In this document: positions 24,891 to 38,379 of the stretch, in pieces
Layout of the letters: every line of letters starts with the position of its first letter
Numbering within the stretch: position 1 is the first letter of the stretch
Assembly: GCA_934277545.1 (NCBI GenBank)
Contig: CAKQUG010000005.1
Span: forward strand, 33,588-97,587
Source: an uncultured Alphaproteobacteria bacterium
GTDB lineage: Bacteria; Pseudomonadota; Alphaproteobacteria; RF32; CAG-239
DNA length: 64,000 nt
Reading direction: 5' to 3'
The notes under the pieces: model-generated
The model's database searches: none
Told to the model about the DNA's origin: nothing
What the model saw: only the letters and a program-made list of their open reading frames with translations
Position numbers and translations under genes: made by a program

Positions 24891-25334
24891 ATGTTTGAAA
24901 ATACACTCCCTGCTTTGGGACAAATAGAAAACAAAATTTTCGCTTATCCGGTGCGTGTTTATTATGAAGATACCGATGCCGGCGGAATTGTTTATTATGC
25001 CAATTACCTAAAGTTTGCCGAACGCGCTCGCACAGAGTTTATTCGCACATTGGGAGTTAATCAGGAAAAAAATCTGGAAGTCGGGCAGACCGGATTTGTA
25101 GTTCGCTCCTGCAATATTGACTATATTGCCTCGGCTCGTTTAGATGATGCGTTGGTTGTTACCTGCAAAATTTTAGAAGTCGGCGGCGCCAGTTTGCGTG
25201 TGTTGCAAGAAATTTACCGCGGCGACACACTACTGACAAAAATTGAAGTAAAACTCATTCACATGAGTTTAGCTTTAAAAAGACCGGTTAGAATTGACGC
25301 AGATTTAAGCGCTAAAATCAAAGAATTGCTTTAA
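24891..25334 (+). CDS. ybgC: Tol-Pal-associated acyl-CoA thioesterase YbgC (4HBT fold)
   Basis: 147 aa. YPVRVYYEDTDAGGIVYYANYLKF hotdog-fold motif. It directly follows ruvB, as in other proteobacteria. Confidence 0.85.
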   Translation: MFENTLPALGQIENKIFAYPVRVYYEDTDAGGIVYYANYLKFAERARTEFIRTLGVNQEKNLEVGQTGFVVRSCNIDYIASARLDDALVVTCKILEVGGASLRVLQEIYRGDTLLTKIEVKLIHMSLALKRPVRIDADLSAKIKELL

Positions 25335-26053
25335 TCCATACTCACGCCATAATGGTGTTCGCCAAATTTACGCACTTCGTCTTGCGGAGTAAATAAAAAG
25401 TAATAATAACGAATATTTGAAGCTGCTTGAGTTGTGTTTTTTTGGCGGAGACGCTTCCAAATTTCCTGCTTGTGATTCCATTGGTTGTAAGAGCGGCTTC
25501 CTTTAACTGCAACTTTCTGCATAGCCATCCATGTTGTGTCAATATAATAAGTATAACCGTTAATATTTACGGCATTCCAAGCATGACCGGTTCCAAGTTG
25601 CCGAGGATTATATATTTGCTGCAACCGTTTGGTTTTTACAACAAAACCTGAAACAATTCTAACTCCCCGTATTCCGGCATATAACGACATTTCTTGAAAC
25701 AACATGGCAAAATCGCCGCAAATACCTGTTCTCGCCTTAAAAACATCATAATGGTATTTCTTATTTTTTAAATTCGGCACCTTGTCAAATTTGTAGCTGT
25801 CATAGGCGATATGGGTTGCTATCCAGTAGGCAATCGCCTGCATTTTTTCTATTTTATTATCAAACGGTTTAGCCAGATAAACAGCAAGTGAACGAGGATT
25901 TTCAGAAACATATTGCGGAGCGTTCTTAGCATATCGCAAAATTTGTTGTTGACGAATACTGCTTTGTTTGATAAGCGGCTGTTCTTTGGCAAAAACCGGA
26001 GACACAGCAAAAAAAAGAACTGTTACAAACCACCAAAGTTTCTTCATTTTCAT
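25331..26053 (-). CDS. Secreted transglutaminase-like cysteine peptidase superfamily protein
   Basis: 240 aa. Signal peptide MKMKKLWWFVTVLFFAVSPVFA. Cys-His-Asp triad candidates: GICGDFAML, GHAWNAV, YYIDTTW. Confidence 0.65.
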   Translation of the reverse strand: MKMKKLWWFVTVLFFAVSPVFAKEQPLIKQSSIRQQQILRYAKNAPQYVSENPRSLAVYLAKPFDNKIEKMQAIAYWIATHIAYDSYKFDKVPNLKNKKYHYDVFKARTGICGDFAMLFQEMSLYAGIRGVRIVSGFVVKTKRLQQIYNPRQLGTGHAWNAVNINGYTYYIDTTWMAMQKVAVKGSRSYNQWNHKQEIWKRLRQKNTTQAASNIRYYYFLFTPQDEVRKFGEHHYGVSMD

Positions 26054-27579
26054 CCCTGTTTGGTCAGTTCAGGCTTAATTGCCGTAAATATGTAGCCGTA
26101 AACAGGACTTTCAGCCTCGTTTCGCAGAATGTGGCGTTCGCAGTTTATAATTTTTAAACCGGTGCTTTTCAGAGCTTTTTCCACATAATTCGGATTATGC
26201 ACAAAACGACCGCTCGGAGCCATAAAGAAATCATCGTCATTGTAATGATTTTCGGTTACCGAAAAAAAGAACATTCCGTTCGGTGTTAATGATTTTGAAA
26301 CTCTGACAAAAACTTTTGTTAAATCTCCAAAATAAGTAAGCACATCAGACGCAATAATTACATGAAAATAATACTCGGTTGTTTCCATATAATGACAAAT
26401 ATCATCGCACAAAAGTTGAGCATAAATTTTTTTTGCCCGCGCCACCTCAAGCATTTTTTCAGACAAATCAACCCCGATAAGCCCTTTACGAGAAGCAAAC
26501 TTTTTCATTTTTTCACCGCACAAGCCTGTGCCGCAACCAAGGTCTAAGATGTGATAACCTTTAAAAACCGAAGTTTTAAGATGTTTAGCCGCCTCATTTT
26601 CAATTAAAGCCGGAGCCTGATAGTCTAATGACTTCAACGTATCATCAAAATCTTGGGCAAACGAATCAAACGTAGCCTTAATAAAATGACTATCGGAATT
26701 TAAAAGCGCGTGTCCGTTTGTTAACGCACAAGCCATGTGTTGCACAATCTTATTATCCGGGAAAAAGTTAAGCCATTTAGATGCGTATTTTTTTGCTAAC
26801 TCTTCACTTTTTTCAGAATAACACTCATAAAGCAGATAACCAAAATTCAAATTTACATCATCGGTTTGTTCGGGGGCTGTCTTTACATATTTCCAGGCAA
26901 AAACAATGCAATTTTCCCAATCATTTAGATTACGGTAAGTTTCACTTAAAGCATTTAAAACCTCTCGATTATGCTCATCTAATTCATAGGCCCGTAAATA
27001 TTTATCTATGGCTTTTTCATATTTCTGCATAGCGGCGAGAGCATTACCGGAAATCATGTTGGCAACCACGCTTGACGGATGCCGTTCTAAAGATTTTTTT
27101 GCAAATTCCAACGCTAAAACATACTTACCCAACGAATAGTAGGTGTTGGCAAGGTTAATCATGGCAATATAACTGTTATTGTTCTGCTCGTACATTTTTT
27201 GATAATAAGTAAGAGCGTCTTCATAATTGCCACGGCAAAAAGCGATGTTTGCCAAATTTTGCCAAGCAGTCATATTATTTGGATTTAGATTAAGAGCTTT
27301 ATTGGCAAAATCCGATGATTTATCATATTCGCCAATTTCATAATTTATGGTAGAAAGATTTAACAGCGCCGCTTCAGAGCTTTTATTCAATTTCAAAGCA
27401 TGTGTATAAAATTCAATTGCTTTTTCTTTATCACCAAGCGAATCATAACAGTTACCGCAAGCAATCGCATATTTTTCCACCTTTGGATTACCTTGTAACA
27501 AAAGTTGGTAAATTTCCAAAGCTCTTTGAAATTGTTTCTCGCCAAATAAAACCGAAGCCTGATGCTCTAAATTTTCCAC
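26050..27579 (-). CDS. TPR-repeat protein fused to a class I SAM-dependent methyltransferase (COG4976-like)
   Basis: 509 aa. The N-terminal roughly 270 aa are TPR repeats (AIEFYTHALKLN..., ALTYYQKMYEQN...). The C-terminal domain carries methyltransferase motif I, ILDLGCGTGLCG. The stop overlaps the start of the downstream gene by 4 nt. Confidence 0.75.
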   Translation of the reverse strand: MENLEHQASVLFGEKQFQRALEIYQLLLQGNPKVEKYAIACGNCYDSLGDKEKAIEFYTHALKLNKSSEAALLNLSTINYEIGEYDKSSDFANKALNLNPNNMTAWQNLANIAFCRGNYEDALTYYQKMYEQNNNSYIAMINLANTYYSLGKYVLALEFAKKSLERHPSSVVANMISGNALAAMQKYEKAIDKYLRAYELDEHNREVLNALSETYRNLNDWENCIVFAWKYVKTAPEQTDDVNLNFGYLLYECYSEKSEELAKKYASKWLNFFPDNKIVQHMACALTNGHALLNSDSHFIKATFDSFAQDFDDTLKSLDYQAPALIENEAAKHLKTSVFKGYHILDLGCGTGLCGEKMKKFASRKGLIGVDLSEKMLEVARAKKIYAQLLCDDICHYMETTEYYFHVIIASDVLTYFGDLTKVFVRVSKSLTPNGMFFFSVTENHYNDDDFFMAPSGRFVHNPNYVEKALKSTGLKIINCERHILRNEAESPVYGYIFTAIKPELTKQG

Positions 27580-27717
27580 TGTAACCTCAATTTTTTATCA
27601 ACTGGCAGAGAGTATAACATAGGCTGACATAAAATAAAAGGAAAAATATTTACAAAAATACAAAAAAAGTATTGACTCATAAAAAAATATACTGTAATAA
27701 CGTAGTGTAATTTTTAT

Positions 27718-27804
27718 GGGGTTGTGGCGGAATTGGTAGACGCGCCAGACTCAAAATCTGGTGGCAGCAATGTCTTGAGAGTTCGATTCTCTCCGGCCCT
27801 ACCA
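27718..27804 (+). tRNA. tRNA-Leu (anticodon CAA), class II with a long variable arm
   Basis: 87 nt. D-arm GCGGAATTGGTAGACGC. Anticodon stem-loop CCAGA-CTCAAAA-TCTGG gives anticodon CAA. T-arm GAGAG-TTCGATT-CTCTC, followed by the 3' acceptor strand CGGCCCT, discriminator A and an encoded CCA. The acceptor stem GGGGTTG/CGGCCCT needs three G-U pairs. Confidence 0.8.
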
Positions 27805-27810
27805 TAAAAC

Positions 27811-27850
27811 TAAAAACACTCATTCGAAAGAATGGGTGTTTTTTTGTTTT
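27811..27850 (+). terminator. Rho-independent terminator after tRNA-Leu
   Basis: Hairpin aacactcattc-gaaa-gaatgggtgtt followed by TTTTTTTGTTTT. Confidence 0.75.
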
Positions 27851-27988
27851 AAAGCCGGAAGAAGCGAACTCGATAAGAGAGTTCGAAGCGGATAGCCGGC
27901 AAAACCGAGCAATTGCGATGGTTGAGCCGTTGCGACGCGAAAGGCACTGCTCGCAGCAAACTTGTTTGCAAGAGTAGGAATATAACAA

Positions 27989-28050
27989 GCTCTCCGGCCC
28001 TACCATAAAATTAACACACTCATTCGCAAGAATGGGTGTGTTTTCGTTTT
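27989..28050 (+). repeat. Imperfect direct repeat of the tRNA-Leu 3' end plus terminator (second copy)
   Basis: ctctccggccctaccataaaa at 27990-28010 is identical to 27789-27809, the T-arm 3' half, acceptor strand and CCA. It is followed by a diverged copy of the terminator hairpin (acactcattcgcaagaatgggtgtgttttcgtttt versus acactcattcgaaagaatgggtgtttttttgtttt). Confidence 0.85.
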
Positions 28051-28154
28051 AAACGACTTTGTAAAACAACCGTTTCATTCGGAATGTTTTATAATTTAAT
28101 GCCCTACATTTTCGTTTTTGCCACTTAAATAGTTTTTGTCTTTTAGCAACACCT

Positions 28155-29087
28155 TTACCGTAAAAACTTTATAACCTCCAGGGCGGCTTTGGCGCCGGAG
28201 CCGGCGGCGATTACAGCTTGATGATGTTCCGGTTCGCAAACATCACCTGCCGCGAACACTCCTTTTATATTGGTAGAACAGCCGTTTGCGCCTGTAACTA
28301 TATATCCTCCCGAGGTCAAATTAAGATAATTACGGAATAACTCTGTATTCGGATGATGCCCTATTGCCACAAATAAGCCAACCACATACAGTGTTTTTCG
28401 CATATCTGTTTTAACGTTGCGAATTTTTAATCCGGTAACCGAAAGCGGCTCATCTGTTCCTAAAACTTCTTCAATCACATTGTTCCAAACCAACACAATT
28501 TTACGATTTTGCAATATGCGTTGTTGCAAAACAGAATCTGCTCGCAGCGAATGACGTCTATGAATTAAATATACCTTATCCGTAAACGCCGATAAATAAA
28601 GCGCTTCTTCCGCCGCTGTGTTACCGCCGCCCACCACAGCCACTTCTTTTCCGCGATAGAAAAAGCCGTCGCAAGTGGCGCAAGACGAAACTCCGTGCCC
28701 CATATATTTTTGCTCACTCGGTAACCCCAGCCAATTTACCGATGAACCTGTCGCCACGATTATAGCTTTAGACTGATAAGAATTTCCGCCGATGGAACTG
28801 CAAGTAAACGGATGGTCAAAAAAATCGACTTCCGATATAATATCATCAACCATGGCTACACCGCGCGCCTCGGCCTGCCGGCGCATTTTTTCCATTAGTT
28901 CAAAACCCGCCAATGTTTCAACAAATCCGGGGTAATTATCAACTTCGCTTGATAAAATGAGCTGTCCTCCTTTTTGATTTCCGGCAACTATTAAAGCCTT
29001 AAGCCCTGCTCTAGCCGCATAAATTCCGGCCGTATACCCCGCAGGTCCCGACCCGATAATTAAAACGTCCGCTTTATATTCAGCCAT
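28155..29087 (-). CDS. trxB: Thioredoxin reductase
   Basis: 310 aa. FAD site IIGSGPAGYTAG, redox-active CATCDGFFY, NADPH site VVGGGNTA. Confidence 0.93.
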   Translation of the reverse strand: MAEYKADVLIIGSGPAGYTAGIYAARAGLKALIVAGNQKGGQLILSSEVDNYPGFVETLAGFELMEKMRRQAEARGVAMVDDIISEVDFFDHPFTCSSIGGNSYQSKAIIVATGSSVNWLGLPSEQKYMGHGVSSCATCDGFFYRGKEVAVVGGGNTAAEEALYLSAFTDKVYLIHRRHSLRADSVLQQRILQNRKIVLVWNNVIEEVLGTDEPLSVTGLKIRNVKTDMRKTLYVVGLFVAIGHHPNTELFRNYLNLTSGGYIVTGANGCSTNIKGVFAAGDVCEPEHHQAVIAAGSGAKAALEVIKFLR

Positions 29088-29217
29088 ATTTTCTCCTTTT
29101 TTCTAATTAAATAAGCCCATTTTCTAATTTTACAATGCTGTTAATTTTTGTCCAAAAACAGACTGGACTTTTTTAAAAATCCGCTTTATAATATAATAAA
29201 TTTAAAAGGTGTTGTTA

Positions 29218-31034
29218 AAATGAAAAAAGAATATGAAGATTTTTTGCTAAGCGAATATAAAAACAGTAATTTTGAACCGTTTAAAATTTCTTTGGGAAAA
29301 TATGATTTTTTTGTTCCTGTTGCGTATGCGACCGGCAACTATGATTACAGCGCTTTTGAACAAGCACTTTTCAGTCAATACCTTAAAAATCAAGCTGCCG
29401 AAATTGCAAAATACAGCAAAGACGGCGTACGAAAAATTCCGACTTTACGTTTTAAGGACAGGATTATAGTCAAACCTTACAGCTTGAGAAATTTGCAAGA
29501 TGATGAAGCTAAATTGAAAGTTGTAGAAAATATTTATGCCCGCTATAAAAAAGCGGTTCGTCTGACAATGCTGTTAAACAATGCCAACCCTGACAACTCC
29601 TTAAAAATCAGAGTAGACACAGATAATATGAAAAGGCTGAATAAAGCCTATAATCAATATCTGGCACAAAAATTCAAAGACAAAGCGCTGGTTTCCGCGG
29701 CAAAAATGAGTGATTTTACCAAGCAGGGCGGAACTATTCTTTATAACACTTTCAAAGTGTTAACCGCTCCAGTTTTCAAAAACATGAGCGATAAATATTT
29801 AAAACGCCTTGAACACATCAAAAAAATTTTTGAGAAAAATCATAAAAGAATTGGGGCTGTTTTGGGTGCCGCCACATTATGCGCTTTTTTATCGCTTAGT
29901 GTTTATAAATGCGCGAATCCTAAAAAAGAACGTAAATCCGACATTATTGAAGCGGGGATTGCGCCCGATAAAACATTAAAAAACATATCTGACGCCGTAA
30001 TTTATTATAAGCACGCAGCAAAAAAAAATAACACCTCCAAAGCAAAACAAAATACCGCTGCTAAAACTATCGGCTTTGAAACTCTGGACGAAAACGTACA
30101 AGAAGCGTTAACCGCTCAGGGTTTGGGCAAAGATCAATTAAACGATGTGCAAAAGCACAATTTAGCCGCCTTTATAAATACGCAGCAGGATTTCAGAACT
30201 TTTGTAGCGTTTGCCGAAAATTTTCATTCCGCCACCTACGATGACAATAAAGGATTTTTAACAATCGGTTACGGCTGCACAAATTATTTGGATGAAAAAG
30301 GAAATCCGCTGGAAAAACGCGGAATTAAAGGCAAAATGTCGGCTTTTGTGCAAAAAGGTCAATACATCACGCAACGACAGGCCATGCAACAGGTTGACAG
30401 AGCCTCTTATTTTTATCTGCTACCGAAAATTTTAAAAAATGTAAAAGTAAAGCTGAACAATACCAAAATGTTTGTAACCAAAAACTTTGCTTTTGTAGCC
30501 AATAACGAATTCGGAGATTCGGAATTTGTAAAAGCCTTAAATGAAAATAAACCAAACAACCATTTAAGCCGCTGTTTGGCACTGTGGAAAGTCGACGCCG
30601 GAATTTCCAAAAGGTTTTTTGTTCTGCACATGATTTTGAACAATTACATTACTGCGGATGAAATAAAAACTTTTAAACCAGCCGGATGCTATAATTTGCA
30701 GATTGACCAGTGCTTGGTTTGCCATAAAAATCCAGACGGTTCAACTAAAATGAAAAAAACTCCGGTGGTAACTACTGAAATTAAAAACGGAAAAAAGAAA
30801 AAAATAAGACGCTTTAAAAACCGCCCGGTGTATAAAATACAAAACGGTATGCCACAATTTTATTGCAAACAACAAGCTATAGATGAAGCAGTCGCTTTAA
30901 TGAAAGCCGAACCTGATGAAAAGTGCGTGGCGCAAATTGTACCTTTGGAAAAGAAACAAACAAAATACCTGAGCGAAAACACCCCTAAAGTAAACCTCGT
31001 GAAGGTTAAACAAAACAAAAATGCTCGCAGCTGA
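29218..31034 (+). CDS. Membrane-anchored protein with a GH24 (T4/lambda-type) lysozyme domain and an unknown N-terminal domain
   Basis: About 605 aa from ATG 29218, after AAGGTG. One central transmembrane helix (IGAVLGAATLCAFLSLSVY). Downstream of it lies the GH24 catalytic motif FAENFHSATYDDNKGFLTIGYGCT, which aligns to T4 lysozyme E11/D20/T26 ([21 protein letters not shown]), and then QQVD...RCLALW as in T4L. The C-terminal tail is very basic and rich in Cys. The N-terminal roughly 230 aa have no recognizable family. Confidence 0.7.
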
Positions 31035-31113
31035 CAAAAAAAACACTTGCTTTTATTATGAAATGTTTTAGAGTGGTTTCCGCTGATATAAAAATTTTTA
31101 AGGAGAATAAAAT

Positions 31114-31353
31114 ATGCCTTCAGTAGTAAATAACAACTGTGTTAAATGCGGCACTTGCGCCTCGGTTTGCCCTGTAAGCGCTTTTCATGTTAGCGATGAA
31201 CAGTATGTTGTAGACCCGGATACCTGCATTGACTGCGGCGTTTGCATTTCCGAATGCCCGCAAAGCGCTATTTGCAGTGATGCCGAAGCTGACGAAGCTG
31301 CTATAAAATTCAACGCCGAACAGGCTAAAGTTTGCCCAAACGCAAATGACTGA
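31114..31353 (+). CDS. 2[4Fe-4S] ferredoxin
   Basis: 79 aa with two CxxCxxCxxxCP motifs: CVKCGTCASVCP and CIDCGVCISECP. Confidence 0.88.
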   Translation: MPSVVNNNCVKCGTCASVCPVSAFHVSDEQYVVDPDTCIDCGVCISECPQSAICSDAEADEAAIKFNAEQAKVCPNAND

Positions 31354-31375
31354 TTTGTTTAGCAAATAGGCTTTA

Positions 31376-31405
31376 GCTCAGGAGTTTGGCTCCTGAGTTT
31401 TTTTG
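31376..31405 (+). terminator. Rho-independent terminator after the ferredoxin gene
   Basis: Hairpin gctcaggag-tttgg-ctcctgag followed by TTTTTTTT. Confidence 0.8.
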
Positions 31406-31425
31406 TATAACAAGGAAAATAAAAT

Positions 31426-32175
31426 ATGCTGCCGCCCTATACTTCCGATTATCTTTTAGACAAGAAAGTTAAAATTTTTCAGCCTGTTGACGGTTACCGC
31501 GCTTCAACCGACGCCGTATTACTGGCAGCTTTTACGACAAGTTTTAAAAATGGAAAAATTTTGGATGTCGGCTCGGGAACCGGTGCGGTATCACTGTGTT
31601 TGGCAAAACGTTTTGAAAATAACGATATTGATATTTTGGGCTTGGAACTTCAGCCGGAATTAGCGGAATTGTCTACATTCAGCGCCAGAGAAAACGGCTT
31701 TGACAGCCTGCATTACCAAAACGCCGATATTCGTTTGGGAACAAAAGAAAACAACCTTGTTCCCTGCTCGTTTGACGCCGTGGTTACAAACCCTCCGTAC
31801 AGCGAACATGACTTACCGTCTCCCAACAAAAGCAAAGCGGCTGCCCATAACCACAGCGGCTTTGACTTACGGCAATGGCTTGAGTTCTGCCTGAAAATGA
31901 CAAAGCCGTTTGGTAAAATATATATGGTTAACCGCGCCGAAGCGCTGCCGCAAATATGCAGCATTCTATACGGCAAAGCCGGTAATCTTCAAATTTTACC
32001 GGTTTATTCAAAAGAAGGGCAAACCGCAAAACGAGTTTTAGTCTCGGCGCAAAAAGACTCCAAAGCACCGTGCCGCCTTCTGCCTCCGTTTATCACACAT
32101 TCAGAAAGCGGCGCCTACAGCGAAGCGGCGCAAAAAATTTTACGCTCCGGCTTGGGCTTTGAGGACATTATTTAA
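31426..32175 (+). CDS. N6-adenine-type SAM methyltransferase, TrmN6/YfiC-like (tRNA m6A37)
   Basis: 249 aa. Motif I ILDVGSGTGAVSL and the N6-adenine motif VVTNPPY. Confidence 0.65.
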   Translation: MLPPYTSDYLLDKKVKIFQPVDGYRASTDAVLLAAFTTSFKNGKILDVGSGTGAVSLCLAKRFENNDIDILGLELQPELAELSTFSARENGFDSLHYQNADIRLGTKENNLVPCSFDAVVTNPPYSEHDLPSPNKSKAAAHNHSGFDLRQWLEFCLKMTKPFGKIYMVNRAEALPQICSILYGKAGNLQILPVYSKEGQTAKRVLVSAQKDSKAPCRLLPPFITHSESGAYSEAAQKILRSGLGFEDII

Positions 32176-32236
32176 GATAGTCTTTACTTTTTAAAGCTAA
32201 AGTATTATTATAACGGCTAACAGAAAGGCTTTTTTT

Positions 32237-33313
32237 ATGTTTAAATATCTTTTGTTTGTATTTTCTCTTTGCTATGCTTTTACGGCAAAAGCCGATGTGA
32301 GCGAATTTGTGTTTCCCGAATATTTAGATGATGAAGCCTATGAGCAGTGCTATAAACTAACTCATAACAGCGATGAGTGCGCCAAAGAAGAAAGCCAACG
32401 CATTTTGCGAGACATAAAAATTTCATATAAAAATTTGCTGGCCGACAGCAGATTAAACGATTGGAACGGCTCTGTAGATAAAAATAAAGATATGCTGCGC
32501 GATATGTATGAAAGCTGGACGGCTTACCGCAACCGCGTCTGCTCGCTGAATGTTCCGGTCTCAAAATATATTGCGCCGTTGGTAGACCCGAAAATTTCTT
32601 GCACCTTATATCAAAACTTTATGCAAAAAGATTATTTAGGAAATATCCTGCATAATCTAAACATAAAAAATCCGCGTAACCCATATCCCGAAAGACTGAT
32701 TAACGCCGACGGAGGCAACAGATATTTGGAAGTAGATCACGATGCTGAATATAAATCATGCGTTGCCGAAAAAAAGCCGCAGGATGAATGTCTTAAGGCA
32801 GAAATCGAGCGCACAACAAAATATATTAAAGATGATTTAGCCACTATTTTAACCATTCCGACCATTGCAAAATGGAACAACGGTCCGGATATTAAAAACG
32901 GCAATATCCGCGATATGTTTGATAGCTGGGTAGCATACCGCAACCGCGTTTGCTCGCTGAACGCCTATGTGCAAAAAATTGCGAATCCGCAAAAACCGGT
33001 GTCTTTTGATTACTGCATACAATATTATAATGAAAACTTTGCCGCTTTGCTGGATTTATATTTGAAAAACGCCAACTCCGTTTTGGATGAAGATATGTAT
33101 GGCACAGACAACGAACCGGAAGAAGGCGGCGCGGAAGAAGGCCGTTCCATAACTCCGCTGAAACGCCGCATTGTTACCGACTTGGATAATTCGGTTGTCT
33201 CCACCGCCACAGAAGATGAAGACGGCGAAGCAGCTCTGCAGGCCGAAACAGTAAGTGCCCCGGAAACCACTGATAAACGCGGCAGACAGTTGCCTTCTTG
33301 GGCGACAAGATAA
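32237..33313 (+). CDS. Secreted protein with two tandem DUF1311 (LprI-like lysozyme inhibitor N-terminal domain) repeats and an acidic tail
   Basis: 358 aa. Signal peptide MFKYLLFVFSLCYAFTAKA. Two units of about 137 aa each carry the pattern C..(x)..C ... W.AYRNRVCSLN ... C (ESWTAYRNRVCSLN and DSWVAYRNRVCSLN). The duplication is visible at the DNA level: 32501-32560 versus 32912-32972. The C-terminal roughly 80 aa are acidic. Confidence 0.6.
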   Translation: MFKYLLFVFSLCYAFTAKADVSEFVFPEYLDDEAYEQCYKLTHNSDECAKEESQRILRDIKISYKNLLADSRLNDWNGSVDKNKDMLRDMYESWTAYRNRVCSLNVPVSKYIAPLVDPKISCTLYQNFMQKDYLGNILHNLNIKNPRNPYPERLINADGGNRYLEVDHDAEYKSCVAEKKPQDECLKAEIERTTKYIKDDLATILTIPTIAKWNNGPDIKNGNIRDMFDSWVAYRNRVCSLNAYVQKIANPQKPVSFDYCIQYYNENFAALLDLYLKNANSVLDEDMYGTDNEPEEGGAEEGRSITPLKRRIVTDLDNSVVSTATEDEDGEAALQAETVSAPETTDKRGRQLPSWATR

Positions 33314-33434: not shown

Positions 33435-34070
33435 ATGCGCAGAACAAAAGAAGATGCTGAACAAACCAGGCAGGCGATATTAGAATCGGCTATGGATATT
33501 TTTTATGAAAAAGGCTACTCTAAAACCACTTTTGATGAAATAGCCAAACGCATAAATTTAACTAAAGGCGCAGTTTATTGGTATTTTCGCAACAAGCCGG
33601 ATATTGTCGCGGCACTAATCAACGAATTTGTGCAAAAACATATTAAGCGACTTGAAGATTTTCGTAATGGAAAAAAAGAAGAAGATTTGAATGTTTTGGC
33701 AGATATGATGCTGCTTGCTTATCATTACATGAAAGAGAATCCGCTGGAATACAAGTTTATCTTTTTTATTACCTGTCAAATGGAATGGAGTGAAGCTATT
33801 TTGGTGAAAATCCGCCCTTTGGTGGAAAAGACCAAAGTAGTTTCCCGTAAAATTATGATTGACACGTTATGCGAGCTTAAAGAAAATAAAAAAATAAGAG
33901 CCGATGTTGATGTTGAAAGTATTACGGAAATTTTGCAAGCTCTTTGGATGGGGCTTTTAGAAAACTATTTGGCAAAACGGATGACTTTGGATTTTGAAAA
34001 AACAGTCAGACAAGGATTTAATTTAATTTTTAACAGTATAAAAACGGAAGGTGTAAACAATGAAAATTAG
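33435..34070 (+). CDS. TetR/AcrR-family transcriptional repressor
   Basis: 211 aa. The N-terminal HTH is ILESAMDIFYEKGYSKTTFDEIAKRINLTKGAVYWYF. It sits immediately upstream of the RND efflux genes. Confidence 0.88.
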   Translation: MRRTKEDAEQTRQAILESAMDIFYEKGYSKTTFDEIAKRINLTKGAVYWYFRNKPDIVAALINEFVQKHIKRLEDFRNGKKEEDLNVLADMMLLAYHYMKENPLEYKFIFFITCQMEWSEAILVKIRPLVEKTKVVSRKIMIDTLCELKENKKIRADVDVESITEILQALWMGLLENYLAKRMTLDFEKTVRQGFNLIFNSIKTEGVNNEN

Positions 34071-35235
34071 TTCTCCAAACATTAAAGGAGCTGTTGTTAG
34101 AATTGCAATCTTATTGGTTTGCATTTCTATCGGCTGGTATTTAAAAGGTCGTTTATCTCCATCTGCTCAAGGAATGGGCTATGGCATGGGTGAAGTTTAT
34201 GTTTTGGCGCAAAAAAGCGAAACAAAAGATATTACGTCCGCCCAAACCAAAATTTCGTATGTTGAAACAATTAACGAAGTAAACATTTTGCCGCAAGTTA
34301 CCGGCACGGTGGAAAAGGTATTGTTTCAAGAAGGAAAGTTTGTAAACGAAGGCGATGTTTTGTTTGAAATAGACCCTTCAAAATATCAGGCCGCCTATGA
34401 TTTGGCTAAGGCTCGTTTGGACAGCGCCAAAGCAAATTTGGTACGCGCTGAACGCGACTATAATCGTCAAGTGAAATTAAGCCGTGAAAAATTTGCCTCT
34501 AAAGCAACTTTTGATTCGTCAGAAAGCACTTATTTACAAGCTAAAGCCGCAGTTGAAGAAGCTCAAGCCAACTTAGATGTCGCTAAAATTGATTTGGATA
34601 ATACAAAAGTAACAGCGCCAATCAGCGGACGTATCGGTAAAGCCTTGGTAACTAAAGGTAACTATGTTGTTGCCTCTAATCAGGTATTGGCAAAAATCGT
34701 GCAAATCAGCCCGATGAGAATTTCCTTTTCTTTGACCGATAAAGAAGTTCTACAAGTAAAAAAATTGGGACACAAGGCTGAAGATTTAACCGCCCGCATC
34801 ACTTTGGCTGACGGAGAGGTTATTGATGAAAAAGTTGTCGACAAATTCTTAAACAATGAAATCAACTCGGCCACTGCCACTGTTTCTATTTTTGTTGATG
34901 TAGACAATTCCGACCAAAAATTGATTCCGGGCAACTATGTTCAGTCGGCTATTTTGACCGGTAAACCGACATATTCTGTTGTGGTTCCGCAATCTGCTTT
35001 GAACTACGACACAGACGGAGCTTTTGTTTATATTGCTAAAATTGATGAAAGTAAGAGCAAAGAAAACGACTTGCATGGTGTGGCAGAACAAAGACGCGTT
35101 GTTTTGGGCGACCCGATTAACGAAAACGAACAAATCATTATCAATGGTTTGAACGAAGGCGAAATGATTGTGGTTTCCGGCACTGTAAAAATTCAAAACA
35201 ATTCTCCGATTAAAATTGGCGTTTTAGAGAAATAA
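34060..35235 (+). CDS. RND efflux periplasmic adaptor (membrane fusion protein, AcrA/MexA-like)
   Basis: 391 aa. An N-terminal anchor, coiled-coil hairpin and lipoyl/beta-barrel domains (VTAPISGRIGKALVTKGNYV). Confidence 0.88.
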   Translation: MKISSPNIKGAVVRIAILLVCISIGWYLKGRLSPSAQGMGYGMGEVYVLAQKSETKDITSAQTKISYVETINEVNILPQVTGTVEKVLFQEGKFVNEGDVLFEIDPSKYQAAYDLAKARLDSAKANLVRAERDYNRQVKLSREKFASKATFDSSESTYLQAKAAVEEAQANLDVAKIDLDNTKVTAPISGRIGKALVTKGNYVVASNQVLAKIVQISPMRISFSLTDKEVLQVKKLGHKAEDLTARITLADGEVIDEKVVDKFLNNEINSATATVSIFVDVDNSDQKLIPGNYVQSAILTGKPTYSVVVPQSALNYDTDGAFVYIAKIDESKSKENDLHGVAEQRRVVLGDPINENEQIIINGLNEGEMIVVSGTVKIQNNSPIKIGVLEK

Positions 35236-35253
35236 AAATAGGATAAAAGAAAA

Positions 35254-38200
35254 ATGTTTTCTAAGTTTTTTATTGAAAGACCTCGTTTTGCCGTAGTAAT
35301 CGCTATTGTTATGGCGTTGGCGGGCTTGGTTTCCGTATTTACGATGCCTATCGGCATGTATCCGGAGATTGCACCTCCGGAAATTCGCGTATCAACCGTA
35401 TACGTCGGCGCCAGTGCCGAAACTGTGGCTAAAAACGTTGGTATTCCGCTGGAAAAGAACATTAACGGTATTGAAAATATGCTGTATATGTCGTCTTCTT
35501 CTTATAACTCCGGTGCTTATCAGCTTTCTATTGCCTTTGAAACCGGTACAGACCCTGATTTGGACCAAGTAAAAGTGCAAAACCGCGTACAGCAGGCTTT
35601 AAGCTCTTTGCCGTCTGAAGTGCAAACCTATGGTGTAACCGTGGAACGCCGTTCTTCAGATATTTTGGCGTTTATGCAAGTAACATCTCCTAAAGGAACA
35701 TACGACAGTAACTACTTAAACAACTATGTTGAAAATAATATTAAAATTGCTTTGAGCCGTGCATACGGTGTGGGCGAAGTTAATATTATGGGTTCGGCAA
35801 CAAGTATGCGTGTATGGATTGACGCTGACAAAGTGGCCGCTTTAAACATTCCGATTTCGGCCATTAAAGCCGCCATTACCAGCCAAAACGTTCAACCTTC
35901 TTTAGGTTCTATCGGTTCGGCTCCGGGGGACGGCAAACAGGTTTTGGTATATTCATTGGAAACTCAAGGCCGTTTGAACGACCCGAAAGATTTTGAAAAT
36001 ATCATTGTGCGCACGGCCGAAGAAGGCGGATTGGTTCGCCTGAAAGATATTGCCCGCGTAGAACTGGGTTCGGAAGACTATTTGATGAACTCAACCGTTG
36101 ACGGACAGCCGGCTGTGTCTATTATGATTAACAAATCATCTGGCGCCAATTCCATTAACGCCATGAAAGCCGTTCGCGCTGAACTGGCTAAATTGGAACG
36201 TTTTTATCCGGAAGATTTGGAAGTAAAAATCTTTAAAGATACGACCGAATTCATTTCTGCCTCTATTGAAGAAGTGTTCTTCACATTGTTTTTGACATTC
36301 TTGTTGGTGGTTTTGGTTTGCTACGTCTTTTTACAAGACTGGCGCGCAACTTTGGTGCCGTCAATAGCTATTCCGGTGTCTATTTTAGCCACTTTTGCCA
36401 TGATGAAAACTCTGGGATTTAACTTAAACATTTTGACCTTGTTCGGTTTGGTGCTGGCTATTGGTCTGGTGGTTGATGATGCCATCGTGGTGGTGGAACG
36501 TACACTAGCCCTGATGCAAGAAGAAAAACTGAAAGCCAAAGAGGCGGCCATAAAAGCAATGAGCCAGGTTTCCAGCGCCGTTGTAGCCACAACTTTGGTA
36601 TTGCTGGCAATTTTCGTACCAATCGCCTTCATGGGCGGTATTACCGGTAAGATTTATCAGCAATTTGCTATTACCATTGCCTTTGCCGTGGGTTTTTCTG
36701 CAGTAAACGCATTGACTCTGTCTCCGGCGCTGTCGGCAACATTTTTACGTCCGTTTGAACAAAAGGAAACAGGATTTTTGGGCTGGTTTAATCGTTTCAT
36801 TCAAGGAACAACCAATAAATATCTGGTTGCGGTCGGCTATATCGGACGAAAAGTAAGTGTGATTGTGTTTATGCTGTTGATTTTGTTTGCATTAAACGCT
36901 TTCTTTATCAAAATTACTCCGACATCATTTCTGCCTGACGAAGACCAAGGCATTATCATGGTGAACGTTCAATTACCTGAAGGTGCTTCAAATGTCAGAA
37001 CCAAGGCTGTAAATGAAAAAATGCTGGCCGCCATCAAAGATCATCCGGCGATTGAATCCGTGATGACAATGGAAGGTTTCAGCATTATGGCCGGTCAGGG
37101 CGAGAACGTGGGCTTTGCCGTTATTTCCTTGAAAAATTGGGCTGAACGTAAAGGCGATGATATGTATTCAACCAATGTTTTGCGCAACCTGATGGCAAGA
37201 GTTTCAAACTTTTCGGAAGCAAAGATTCAAATGTTTGAAATGCCGGCTATTCCGGGACTTGGTTCAACCAATGCTATGGACTTCAAAATTCAGGCGGTTG
37301 ATAATACAGATATGAAAGACTTGGAAAAAACGGTAAATGCGTTTACCCGTCAAGCGATGGCTTTGCCGCAAATTTCATTGGCTTATTCAACCTTTAACGC
37401 GCAAACACCGCACGCTTATATTGAAATTGACCGTGAAAAAGCCGAATCTTTGGGGGTTGCCGTGGGTAATATTTACAGCACGTTGCAAACCTATATAGGT
37501 TCTTCACATATCAATGATATTAACATCGGCACCCAGGTTAACAAAGTTAAAATCCAAGCTGATTGGAAATACCGTAAAGACCTTGACAGCTTGAACAAAA
37601 TCTATGTTCAAAGTGATAAAGGAGAAATGGTACCGCTGGGAAGTTTGATTAAGATGAAGACTGTTCTGCTGCCGCGTGGTATTGACCGTTATAACCAATA
37701 TCCGGCTGCAACCGTAAACGCAGTTGCCGCCAGCGGTTACAGTTCAGGTGAAGCTATGCAGGCTTTGGAAGATTTAGCCACCAAGACTTTGCCAAAAGGA
37801 TATACATACGCTTGGTCGGGTACCAGCTTACAAGAAAAAAACAACCAAGGACAAATTTTCTACATCATCGCATTTGCCGCTTTGTTTGCATATTTGTTCA
37901 TGGTGGCACAATATGAAAGCTGGATGATTCCGCTGGCCGTTATGCTGTCTGTTTTAACGGCTATGCTCGGCGCCACCTGCGGTTTGTTTGTAACCAATAT
38001 GTCATTGAGTATTTATGCCCAACTAGGTTTGGTGCTGCTGGTTGGTTTGGCCGCTAAAAACGCAATTTTGGTGGTAGAATTTGCCCGTGAGGCTCACCTG
38101 AAAGGCAAATCAATTTTGACATCGGCTTTGTATGGTACGCGTGAACGTTTCCGCGCCGTGCTGATGACCGCCTGCACATTTATTTTGGGTGTAGCTCCGT

Positions 38201-38379
38201 TGGTATGGGCTACAGGCGCATCGGCAGGAAGCCGTGTGGCTGTGGGCGTACCGGTGTTTACGGGTATGGTTGTCGGTACATTAGCCGGTTTGGTATTCAT
38301 TCCGTTAATGTATATCTTAATCCAAACCATTACCGACCGCAAAAAAGTGAAAGGTAAAAATGCAAAATCTAAGGATTAA
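35254..38379 (+). CDS. RND multidrug efflux permease (AcrB/MexB-like, HAE1)
   Basis: 1041 aa with 12 transmembrane helices and two large periplasmic loops. MFSKFFIERPRFAVVIAIVMALAG; the conserved TM4 region reads GLVVDDAIVVVE. Confidence 0.93.
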   Translation: MFSKFFIERPRFAVVIAIVMALAGLVSVFTMPIGMYPEIAPPEIRVSTVYVGASAETVAKNVGIPLEKNINGIENMLYMSSSSYNSGAYQLSIAFETGTDPDLDQVKVQNRVQQALSSLPSEVQTYGVTVERRSSDILAFMQVTSPKGTYDSNYLNNYVENNIKIALSRAYGVGEVNIMGSATSMRVWIDADKVAALNIPISAIKAAITSQNVQPSLGSIGSAPGDGKQVLVYSLETQGRLNDPKDFENIIVRTAEEGGLVRLKDIARVELGSEDYLMNSTVDGQPAVSIMINKSSGANSINAMKAVRAELAKLERFYPEDLEVKIFKDTTEFISASIEEVFFTLFLTFLLVVLVCYVFLQDWRATLVPSIAIPVSILATFAMMKTLGFNLNILTLFGLVLAIGLVVDDAIVVVERTLALMQEEKLKAKEAAIKAMSQVSSAVVATTLVLLAIFVPIAFMGGITGKIYQQFAITIAFAVGFSAVNALTLSPALSATFLRPFEQKETGFLGWFNRFIQGTTNKYLVAVGYIGRKVSVIVFMLLILFALNAFFIKITPTSFLPDEDQGIIMVNVQLPEGASNVRTKAVNEKMLAAIKDHPAIESVMTMEGFSIMAGQGENVGFAVISLKNWAERKGDDMYSTNVLRNLMARVSNFSEAKIQMFEMPAIPGLGSTNAMDFKIQAVDNTDMKDLEKTVNAFTRQAMALPQISLAYSTFNAQTPHAYIEIDREKAESLGVAVGNIYSTLQTYIGSSHINDINIGTQVNKVKIQADWKYRKDLDSLNKIYVQSDKGEMVPLGSLIKMKTVLLPRGIDRYNQYPAATVNAVAASGYSSGEAMQALEDLATKTLPKGYTYAWSGTSLQEKNNQGQIFYIIAFAALFAYLFMVAQYESWMIPLAVMLSVLTAMLGATCGLFVTNMSLSIYAQLGLVLLVGLAAKNAILVVEFAREAHLKGKSILTSALYGTRERFRAVLMTACTFILGVAPLVWATGASAGSRVAVGVPVFTGMVVGTLAGLVFIPLMYILIQTITDRKKVKGKNAKSKD

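What the first reader, a model, noticed from the sequence alone, without database searches (positions are those of the whole stretch)
29148..33313. Membrane-anchored GH24 lysozyme-domain protein near a tandem DUF1311 (LprI-like) secreted protein
The 29218-31034 ORF has an intact T4-lysozyme-type catalytic motif (FAENFHSATYDDNKGFLTIGYGCT; Glu, Asp and Thr all present). It sits behind a single transmembrane helix and is fused to an unrecognizable N-terminal domain of about 230 aa and a basic, Cys-rich C-terminal tail. This is not a phage endolysin or holin cassette and not the usual GH23 lytic transglycosylase. Three genes downstream on the same strand, 32237-33313 encodes a signal-peptide protein made of two tandem copies of a four-Cys W.AYRNRVC domain. 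I recognize that domain as DUF1311 (PF07007, described as the N-terminal domain of the mycobacterial lysozyme inhibitor LprI). The duplication is visible at DNA level (32501-32560 versus 32912-32972). A peptidoglycan hydrolase and a candidate lysozyme-inhibitor fold sitting together next to a tRNA integration scar could be a self-immunity or effector/immunity pair, or a dedicated cell-wall remodelling module. The ferredoxin and the TrmN6-like methyltransferase lie between the two genes and may be unrelated.
Basis: partly seen in the sequence, partly recalled or inferred. Interest (0 to 1): 0.62.

Follow-up and report, generated by a model that had tools for sequence, protein, structure and literature searches.

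The report
Membrane-tethered lysozyme with orphan cytoplasmic domain
The lysozyme-like gene is real and belongs to a small, undescribed family from uncultured gut Alphaproteobacteria in which a new-fold cytoplasmic domain is tethered through one membrane helix to a swappable cell-wall-cutting enzyme, but its proposed partnership with the nearby DUF1311 protein is an accident of gene order.

Summary
Observation confirmed. 29220-31034(+) encodes a 604-aa protein with a PF00959 (GH24) domain above Pfam's cut-off. Its Glu333/Asp342/Thr348 align with T4 lysozyme E11/D20/T26 and are invariant in 17 homologues. It has one TM helix and a ~210-aa N-terminal region. 32237-33313(+) encodes a signal-peptide protein with two tandem four-Cys DUF1311-like repeats, a borderline PF07007 hit.

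The proposed lysozyme/inhibitor pairing is not supported. A conserved intrinsic terminator lies between the genes. Sister genera keep TrxB/Fdx/TrmN/DUF1311x2/TetR/RND without the lysozyme gene. More distant lysozyme homologues sit in other housekeeping contexts with no DUF1311 gene within 10 kb. PF07007 itself has never been shown to inhibit lysozyme.

The new result concerns the "unrecognizable" N-terminal domain. It folds confidently (pLDDT 92.7) and has no match in PDB or viral structure libraries. It occurs in only 66 clusters among 1.84 billion representatives and is always N-terminal. Across a hydrophobic segment it is fused to either a GH24 or a GH108 muramidase, always in chromosomal housekeeping contexts.

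Best reading: an endogenous, inner-membrane-tethered periplasmic muramidase positioned or controlled from the cytoplasm. This is a new variant of a known kind, of moderate interest.

The parts
29164..29192 (+). sigma-70-like promoter match (TGGACT-17-TATAAT) upstream of the lysozyme gene
   Evidence: consensus match only
29220..31034 (+). gene for the 604-aa bitopic muramidase (N-domain, TM, GH24, C-terminal extension)
   Evidence: homologues all start at MKKEYE
29220..29744 (+). orphan-fold N-terminal domain (residues 1-175), predicted cytoplasmic
29850..29906 (+). single transmembrane helix (residues 211-229, IGAVLGAATLCAFLSLSVY)
   Evidence: Kyte-Doolittle mean 1.91, next best segment 0.89
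30087..30719 (+). GH24 (T4-lysozyme-type) muramidase domain, residues 290-500, predicted periplasmic
   Evidence: PF00959; Foldseek matches to phage GH24 endolysins
30210..30278 (+). catalytic motif FAENFHSATYDDNKGFLTIGYGC (E333, D342, T348)
   Evidence: hhalign to T4L residues 9-31; invariant columns
30720..31031 (+). basic, Cys-containing C-terminal extension (long beta-hairpin plus helix, then a disordered end), specific to the TrxB-linked clade
   Evidence: pLDDT 76-92 for residues 501-575; conserved C501 and C569; no Pfam hit
31114..31353 (+). 2x[4Fe-4S] ferredoxin FdxA, an unrelated housekeeping neighbour
31375..31399 (+). intrinsic terminator (11-bp GC-rich stem plus T-run) separating the lysozyme-fdx unit from trmN-DUF1311x2
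   Evidence: conserved in 15 loci with changed stems
31426..32175 (+). TrmN/HemK-like SAM methyltransferase, an unrelated neighbour
32237..33313 (+). secreted protein with two tandem DUF1311-like four-Cys domains (DUF1311x2)
32324..32671 (+). DUF1311-like copy 1 (residues 30-145)
   Evidence: PF07007 stretch 46-104; family HMM
32738..33091 (+). DUF1311-like copy 2 (residues 168-285)
   Evidence: 36% identical to copy 1, E=4e-20; no PF07007 hit on its own
33272..33304 (+). conserved C-terminal motif DKRGRQLPSWA after an acidic disordered tail
   Evidence: alignment of 13 orthologues
27718..27804 (+). tRNA-Leu(CAA); its 3' end plus terminator (27789-27853) is repeated at 27990-28053

Best explanation
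Gene 29220-31034 encodes an endogenous, inner-membrane-tethered peptidoglycan muramidase. A ~175-residue domain of a previously undescribed fold, followed by helices, stays in the cytoplasm. One TM helix (211-229) crosses the membrane. A catalytically intact GH24 domain and a disulfide-prone C-terminal extension lie in the periplasm, where the enzyme cuts the MurNAc-GlcNAc bond of the cell's own glycan strands within reach of its ~60-residue linker. The cytoplasmic domain most likely positions or gates the enzyme through a cytoplasmic partner. This would be analogous in logic to MltG or FtsEX-type control, but there is no homology. The family is chromosomal, apparently vertically inherited, and restricted to uncultured, mostly gut, Alphaproteobacteria. 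The DUF1311x2 protein is a separate periplasmic protein that belongs to an older Fdx-TrmN-DUF1311x2-TetR-RND block. It is a neighbour by synteny only. Shown: the architecture, the catalytic triad, the distribution, the domain swap and the lack of linkage. Inferred: the topology, the activity on the cell's own wall, and the regulatory role of the N-domain.
For: The GH24 assignment and triad are shown. There is no N-terminal signal peptide and only one strong hydrophobic segment. Across 49 family members the net charge is +3.1 on the N-flank against +0.9 on the C-flank. Cys density is twofold higher on the C-terminal side (p=1e-4), and the conserved Cys lie only there. This fits an N-in/C-out topology. 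The N-domain is a confident orphan fold. It is always N-terminal, and of 49 full-length representatives 22 carry PF00959 and 15 carry PF05838 (GH108). A family HMM adds 7 more GH24-like members. Replacing one muramidase family by another behind the same module argues that muramidase activity is the selected function. Both GH24 and GH108 forms sit among housekeeping genes: TrxB/Fdx, PPDK/MFS/MdoGH, RsmI/YraN, DnaB/L28/CysRS, DnaJ, and Mla/H+-PPase/FtsK. IMG/VR holds no full-length relative, and the only PHROGs hit is the GH24 domain itself. All 30 loci from the genome scan belong to one syntenic group of gut MAGs. Most records are titled Alphaproteobacteria or (pro)teobacteria, and four carry evidently wrong bin labels.
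Against: There is no experimental or structural evidence of topology or activity. Periplasmic T4/P22-type lysozymes are usually lethal (bioRxiv 10.1101/418723), so an unidentified restraint must exist. No conserved partner gene was found next to family members. The protein evolves much faster than its backbone: 50-57% identity against 83-99% for neighbours, which is unusual for a core wall enzyme. One subgroup has two moderately hydrophobic segments, so its topology is uncertain. One homologue (L014) is interrupted.
Confidence: 0.55

Rival explanations
1. One reading: the GH24 protein and the DUF1311x2 protein form a hydrolase/inhibitor pair, either self-immunity or effector/immunity.
For: Both are predicted periplasmic and lie three genes apart on one strand. 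LprI-domain signal-peptide proteins are predicted immunity proteins next to lysozyme-like T6SS effectors in Pantoea (PMC9796082; PMC12135965). Both proteins evolve fast relative to their neighbours.
Against: A conserved terminator lies between them. DUF1311x2 keeps its place without the lysozyme gene in L042 and L043, and stands alone in L044. Lysozyme homologues elsewhere have no DUF1311 gene within 10 kb. The GH24 protein has a TM anchor and a cytoplasmic domain, with no Pfam-detected secretion-marker domain. The PF07007 domain is not a demonstrated inhibitor (PMC7933661).
Confidence: 0.06
2. A domesticated lysin used for programmed lysis, for example release of GTA-like particles, vesicles or public goods. 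The enzyme is held inactive at the membrane and the cytoplasmic domain acts as the trigger.
For: The catalytic triad is fully intact, unlike detoxified SpmX. GH24 and GH108 are typical endolysin domains, and swapping between them is phage-like modularity. There is a weak sub-threshold resemblance to the Bartonella GTA endolysin BgtA. Evolution is fast.
Against: No holin, spanin, GTA or prophage genes were seen in any of about 20 contexts. No relatives were found in IMG/VR. The position is stable within clades.
Confidence: 0.15
3. A dedicated wall-piercing enzyme for assembly of an envelope-spanning machine (flagellum, pilus or secretion system), like FlgJ, VirB1 or PrgK.
For: Membrane-anchored muramidases serve such machines (PMC11323569, listed). 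A type IV pilin-like gene lies near TrxB in L043.
Against: The gene is never found inside a machine gene cluster in the loci examined. The pilin neighbour is in a locus that lacks the lysozyme gene.
Confidence: 0.1
4. A largely non-enzymatic scaffold or polarity factor that uses a lysozyme fold for binding, as SpmX does in Caulobacterales.
For: SpmX shows that Alphaproteobacteria have co-opted a GH24 domain for localisation. The SpmX muramidase domain is among the structural matches.
Against: SpmX has D20L and T26V/I substitutions, whereas here E, D and T are invariant. The architecture is reversed: the muramidase is C-terminal, behind one TM helix. Replacement by GH108 in relatives argues for catalysis.
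Confidence: 0.07

Closest known systems
Phage GH24 endolysins (T4 lysozyme, P22 lysozyme, AbLys1; PF00959)
   Same: Same catalytic fold, and a Glu/Asp/Thr triad with identical spacing of 9 and 6 residues.
   Different: It is not in a phage or lysis cassette. It is preceded by a 210-residue cytoplasmic region and a TM helix and followed by a ~100-residue extension. It is chromosomal and clade-restricted.
SpmX of Caulobacterales (a co-opted GH24 domain)
   Same: An alphaproteobacterial, vertically inherited, membrane-bound protein built on a phage-type GH24 domain.
   Different: SpmX has the muramidase at the N-terminus, two C-terminal TM segments, and attenuating D20/T26 substitutions. Here the order is reversed, there is one TM helix, and the triad is intact.
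SAR endolysins (P1 Lyz, phage 21 R21)
   Same: A membrane-tethered GH24 enzyme with Cys residues near the active site (R21 is among the structural matches).
   Different: The SAR domain is an N-terminal weakly hydrophobic signal-anchor. Here the anchor follows a large folded cytoplasmic domain and is strongly hydrophobic.
MltG (YceG) and other bitopic housekeeping glycan-strand cleavers
   Same: They work alike: an inner-membrane single-pass protein with a periplasmic glycan-cleaving domain, and in some species a cytoplasmic N-terminal domain (established knowledge).
   Different: There is no YceG domain and no homology. The chemistry is predicted hydrolytic (GH24 or GH108), not lytic transglycosylase.
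LprI (M. tuberculosis), ScwA (Salmonella) and other PF07007 proteins
   Same: DUF1311x2 has a signal peptide and four conserved Cys per repeat. The whole protein passes the PF07007 cut-off, and about 40 of 62 homologues carry the precomputed hit.
   Different: It has two tandem copies, no MliC domain and no lipobox, plus an acidic tail with a conserved RGRQLPSWA end. ScwA modulates MltD levels rather than inhibiting lysozyme.

Membership tests
GH24 / PF00959 Phage_lysozyme | Profile match above Pfam's gathering score | tested here: met
   32.2 bits against 22.3, E=1.6e-7; 22 of 49 family representatives also hit
GH24 / PF00959 Phage_lysozyme | Catalytic Glu, Asp and Thr aligned with T4L E11/D20/T26 | tested here: met
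   hhalign places 331-353 on 9-31; E333, D342 and T348 are invariant
GH24 / PF00959 Phage_lysozyme | T4-lysozyme fold | tested here: met
   AF2 domain pLDDT about 85-95; Foldseek probability 1.0 and TMt 0.72-0.77 to P22, PHAb10 and AB5075 lysozymes
GH24 / PF00959 Phage_lysozyme | Muramidase activity | not testable with these tools
   needs an enzyme assay
PF07007 LprI / DUF1311 | Profile match above the gathering score | tested here: inconclusive
   The whole protein scores 24.0 against 22. Copy 1 alone scores 20.8 and copy 2 gives no hit. About 40 of 62 homologues carry a precomputed PF07007 hit. There is no PDB sequence match
PF07007 LprI / DUF1311 | Four conserved cysteines, secreted | tested here: met
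   Four invariant Cys per repeat; signal peptide ending AKA/DV
Bacterial lysozyme inhibitors (MliC/PliC, Ivy, PliG; LprI as characterised) | MliC (PF09864) or an equivalent inhibitory domain | tested here: not met
   No such Pfam hit at E<=0.1. The literature says the MliC domain suffices, and PF07007-only ScwA gives no protection
Effector/immunity (or toxin/self-immunity) pair | Adjacent, co-transcribed genes | tested here: not met
   Two genes and a conserved terminator lie between them
Effector/immunity (or toxin/self-immunity) pair | Linkage kept across genomes | tested here: not met
   L042, L043 and L044 have DUF1311x2 without the lysozyme gene. L015-L030 and L032 have the lysozyme homologue without DUF1311 within 10 kb. 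Genome-wide co-occurrence was not testable
Effector/immunity (or toxin/self-immunity) pair | Secretion or delivery domain on the effector | tested here: not met
   PF00959 is the only Pfam domain detected. Instead there is a TM anchor and a cytoplasmic domain
Phage or prophage lysis cassette | Holin, spanin or phage genes adjacent; relatives in viral genomes | tested here: not met
   The neighbours are housekeeping genes. One weak GH24-only hit in IMG/VR. No BFVD match for the N-domain
SpmX | N-terminal muramidase, two C-terminal TM segments, remodelled cleft (D20, T26 lost) | tested here: not met
   Reversed order, one TM helix, intact triad
SAR endolysin | N-terminal signal-anchor-release segment | tested here: not met
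   The N-terminus is a charged, folded domain, and the TM helix is at residues 211-229

The most novel reading that the evidence does not exclude
The N-domain/TM/muramidase proteins form an undescribed class of transmembrane-controlled cell-wall hydrolases. An orphan-fold cytoplasmic module couples an intracellular cue or cytoskeletal partner to a periplasmic muramidase that is interchangeably GH24 or GH108, and possibly GH23-like. This class may serve as a principal glycan-strand cleaver in an uncultured lineage of gut Alphaproteobacteria.
Probability: 0.35. Interest if true: 0.6.

Novelty: new variant of a known kind. Interest (0 to 1): 0.45.

Why it matters
Membrane-tethered peptidoglycan hydrolases must be tightly controlled, and few control modules are known. 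A fully intact T4-type lysozyme that lives permanently in the periplasm of its owner implies a restraint mechanism that has not been described. The restraint may act through the new cytoplasmic domain or through the Cys-rich tail. The same module is paired with two different muramidase families, which is a natural domain-swap experiment pointing to function. The organisms are abundant but uncultured gut Alphaproteobacteria about whose cell biology almost nothing is known. The finding is also a caution that the Pfam name 'Lysozyme inhibitor LprI' should not be read as a function.

Tried and rejected
A second word-indexed homologue search with alignment A1 found nothing new. A viral-contig scan with the N-domain alignment failed for lack of a conserved stretch. 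The A1 scan gave only one weak GH24-only hit. Foldseek against AFDB was unavailable. PDB sequence searches gave nothing for the N-domain or for DUF1311, either as a single sequence or as a profile. Rfam found only the tRNA in 27500-29250. A search for a conserved partner gene next to family members found none: the upstream small ORFs are clade-specific and have no Pfam hit. Cluster look-up gave no organism names for the GH108 variants. I considered and rejected a prophage or island origin based on the tRNA repeat. The repeat lies about 1.2 kb upstream, beyond trxB, and the lysozyme gene sits between trxB and fdx in 16 loci whatever lies upstream. Correlated divergence of the two proteins across loci was considered uninformative, because TrmN tracks the same phylogeny.


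Full report
**What is there.** The region holds four same-strand genes:
- 29220-31034, a 604-aa protein;
- 31114-31353, a 2x[4Fe-4S] ferredoxin;
- 31426-32175, a TrmN/HemK-like methyltransferase;
- 32237-33313, a 358-aa secreted protein.

Upstream lie trxB (28155-29087, minus strand) and tRNA-Leu(CAA) (27718-27804). Downstream lie a TetR regulator and an RND efflux operon. The upstream TTG at 29148 is not the start. All homologues begin at MKKEYE, which is ATG 29220, and an AAGGTG precedes it.

**The lysozyme domain.** PF00959 is hit above the gathering score: 32.2 against 22.3 bits. Profile alignment to T4 lysozyme places FAENFHSATYDDNKGFLTIGYGC (331-353) on residues 9-31. E333, D342 and T348 therefore correspond to E11, D20 and T26. 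All three are invariant in 17 homologues that go down to 29% identity. In the AF2 model, residues 285-500 are confident and match phage GH24 endolysins (P22 lysozyme TMt 0.77) and the SpmX muramidase domain.

**Topology (inferred).** The N-terminus is charged and folded, with no signal peptide. There is one strongly hydrophobic segment, residues 211-229, with a Kyte-Doolittle mean of 1.91 against 0.89 for the next best. Across 49 family members the N-flank carries net +3.1 charge against +0.9 on the C-flank. Cys is twice as dense on the C-terminal side (p=1e-4). The conserved Cys (353, 452, 490, 498, 501, 569) all lie after the TM helix. This fits a cytoplasmic N-domain and a periplasmic, disulfide-bonded muramidase plus tail.

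**The DUF1311 protein.** It has a signal peptide (…AFTAKA/DV). Two repeats are 36% identical over 112 aa (E=4e-20), each with four invariant Cys. An acidic disordered tail ends in a conserved D[KR]RGRQLPSWA. The PF07007 assignment is borderline. The whole protein scores 24.0 against a cut-off of 22, copy 1 alone scores 20.8, and copy 2 alone gives nothing. About 40 of 62 homologue clusters carry the precomputed hit. There is no MliC domain.

**Are the two genes a pair? No.**
- A strong intrinsic terminator (31375-31399) follows fdx. It is kept in all 15 related loci examined, with altered stems and loops. This shows selection for termination between the two genes.
- The block TrxB(-)/lysozyme/Fdx/TrmN/DUF1311x2/TetR/RND is syntenic in L001-L014, L031 and L034, so adjacency within that clade says nothing.
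- In the sister lineages L042 and L043 (TrxB 68% and RND pump 81% identical to the window) the block is TrxB(-)/Fdx/TrmN/DUF1311x2/TetR/RND. No lysozyme or N-domain gene lies within 7 kb. In L044, DUF1311x2 sits in an unrelated context.
- Conversely, homologues at 24-35% identity (L015-L030, L032) lie between PPDK and an MFS/MdoGH cluster, or after RsmI-YraN. No DUF1311 domain is detectable within 10 kb, even with a family HMM.
- In the literature, PF07007's 'lysozyme inhibitor' label comes from LprI, whose separate MliC domain suffices for inhibition. ScwA, a PF07007-only periplasmic protein, conferred no lysozyme resistance and instead changed MltD levels (PMC7933661).
- LprI-domain proteins as T6SS immunity proteins are predictions only, and they rest on immediate adjacency to lysozyme-like effectors (PMC9796082; PMC12135965). 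That criterion is not met here.

**Domain swap.** Of 49 full-length representatives carrying the N-domain, 22 have PF00959 and 15 have PF05838 (GH108). Four show only C-terminal TPRs by Pfam. A family-specific GH24 HMM recovers 7 more and weakly touches the TPR group. One member, P0071, has an 'ES…GLGPLQ' motif that looks like GH23 by eye; this was not tested. In most members a hydrophobic segment separates the N-domain from the enzyme. The same cytoplasmic module is therefore joined to at least two distinct muramidase families. This argues that muramidase activity at a site defined by the module is the selected function.

**Genomic setting.** All 30 loci found in 185,579 species genomes belong to one syntenic group of uncultured gut MAGs (Hadza, Nepal, Brazil, HGM and UMGS cohorts). 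Most records are titled Alphaproteobacteria or (pro)teobacteria, and four bins carry implausible labels. The GH108 forms also sit among housekeeping genes: DnaB/L28/TrpRS/CysRS, DnaJ, pyruvate kinase, and Mla/H+-PPase/FtsK on a 428-kb contig. No holin, spanin, prophage, GTA or secretion-system genes were seen. IMG/VR holds no full-length relative. No conserved partner gene was found.

**Mechanism proposed.** The protein is a bitopic inner-membrane muramidase acting on the cell's own peptidoglycan, positioned or gated from the cytoplasm by the orphan domain. It works like MltG-type tethered glycan cleavers but is not homologous to them. It contrasts with SpmX, the known alphaproteobacterial co-opted GH24 protein. 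SpmX has the reverse domain order and has lost D20 and T26 (bioRxiv 10.1101/418723).

An intact periplasmic T4/P22-type lysozyme is normally lethal. Tethering, the clade-specific basic Cys-containing tail (residues 501-575, pLDDT 76-92) or low expression must therefore restrain it. This step is inferred.

They are scored in the rival section.

**Oddities.** The lysozyme protein (50-57% identity) and DUF1311x2 (50-69%) diverge far faster than TrxB (83-93%), Fdx (91-100%) or the RND pump (97-99%) among the same genomes. Within the lysozyme protein, the GH24 domain (61-66%) and the N-domain (50-59%) are the best kept, and the linker is nearly free. Fast evolution of envelope-exposed proteins is common, but it is also what conflict-driven genes show.

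**Verdict.** The pairing interpretation is not supported. The lysozyme gene is a member of a small, undescribed family of membrane-tethered muramidases with an orphan cytoplasmic domain. That is a new variant of a known kind, of moderate interest.

Noticed in passing
window 27789-27853 and 27990-28053: The last 17 nt of tRNA-Leu(CAA) plus its downstream terminator hairpin are directly repeated 200 bp further on, at about 90% identity. This looks like an att-like remnant of an excised or decayed integrative element. In L001 and L002 the upstream TPR-methyltransferase/transglutaminase pair is inverted relative to the window.
   Followed up: partly
window 34060-38379 and L001-L014: The RND efflux proteins are 95-99% identical among GTDB species representatives whose TrxB is 83-93% and TrmN 69-90% identical. 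The efflux operon is unusually conserved, perhaps through a recent sweep or exchange among gut species, or through very strong constraint.
   Followed up: no
window 33272-33304: DUF1311x2 ends in a conserved D[KR]RGRQLPSWA motif after an acidic low-complexity tail. It looks like a short linear binding motif of unknown partner.
   Followed up: no
L014 10001-11730; L022 3525-4826: The lysozyme homologue is interrupted by a stop in the linker in L014 and truncated in L022. These may be pseudogenes or MAG assembly errors.
   Followed up: partly
L002, L003, L004, L006 (record titles): MAGs titled Bacteroidaceae, [Ruminococcus] gnavus and Eubacteriales carry loci that are syntenic with the alphaproteobacterial ones, with flanking proteins about 80-99% identical. 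The bin labels are evidently wrong.
   Followed up: no
P0071 (protein): This N-domain protein has a C-terminal part with an 'ARSESS…SSGLGPLQ' motif resembling GH23/SLT lytic transglycosylases and no Pfam hit. It may be a third enzyme family joined to the module.
   Followed up: no
P0049, P0051, P0053, P0055, P0058, P0060, P0067: This subgroup has two moderately hydrophobic segments (around residues 167 and 205-217), and some members also have C-terminal TPR repeats. Their topology may differ from that of the window protein.
   Followed up: no
window 25331-26053 (-): A signal-peptide transglutaminase-core protein lies next to a TPR-plus-methyltransferase fusion gene (26050-27579). It was not examined further.
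   Followed up: no
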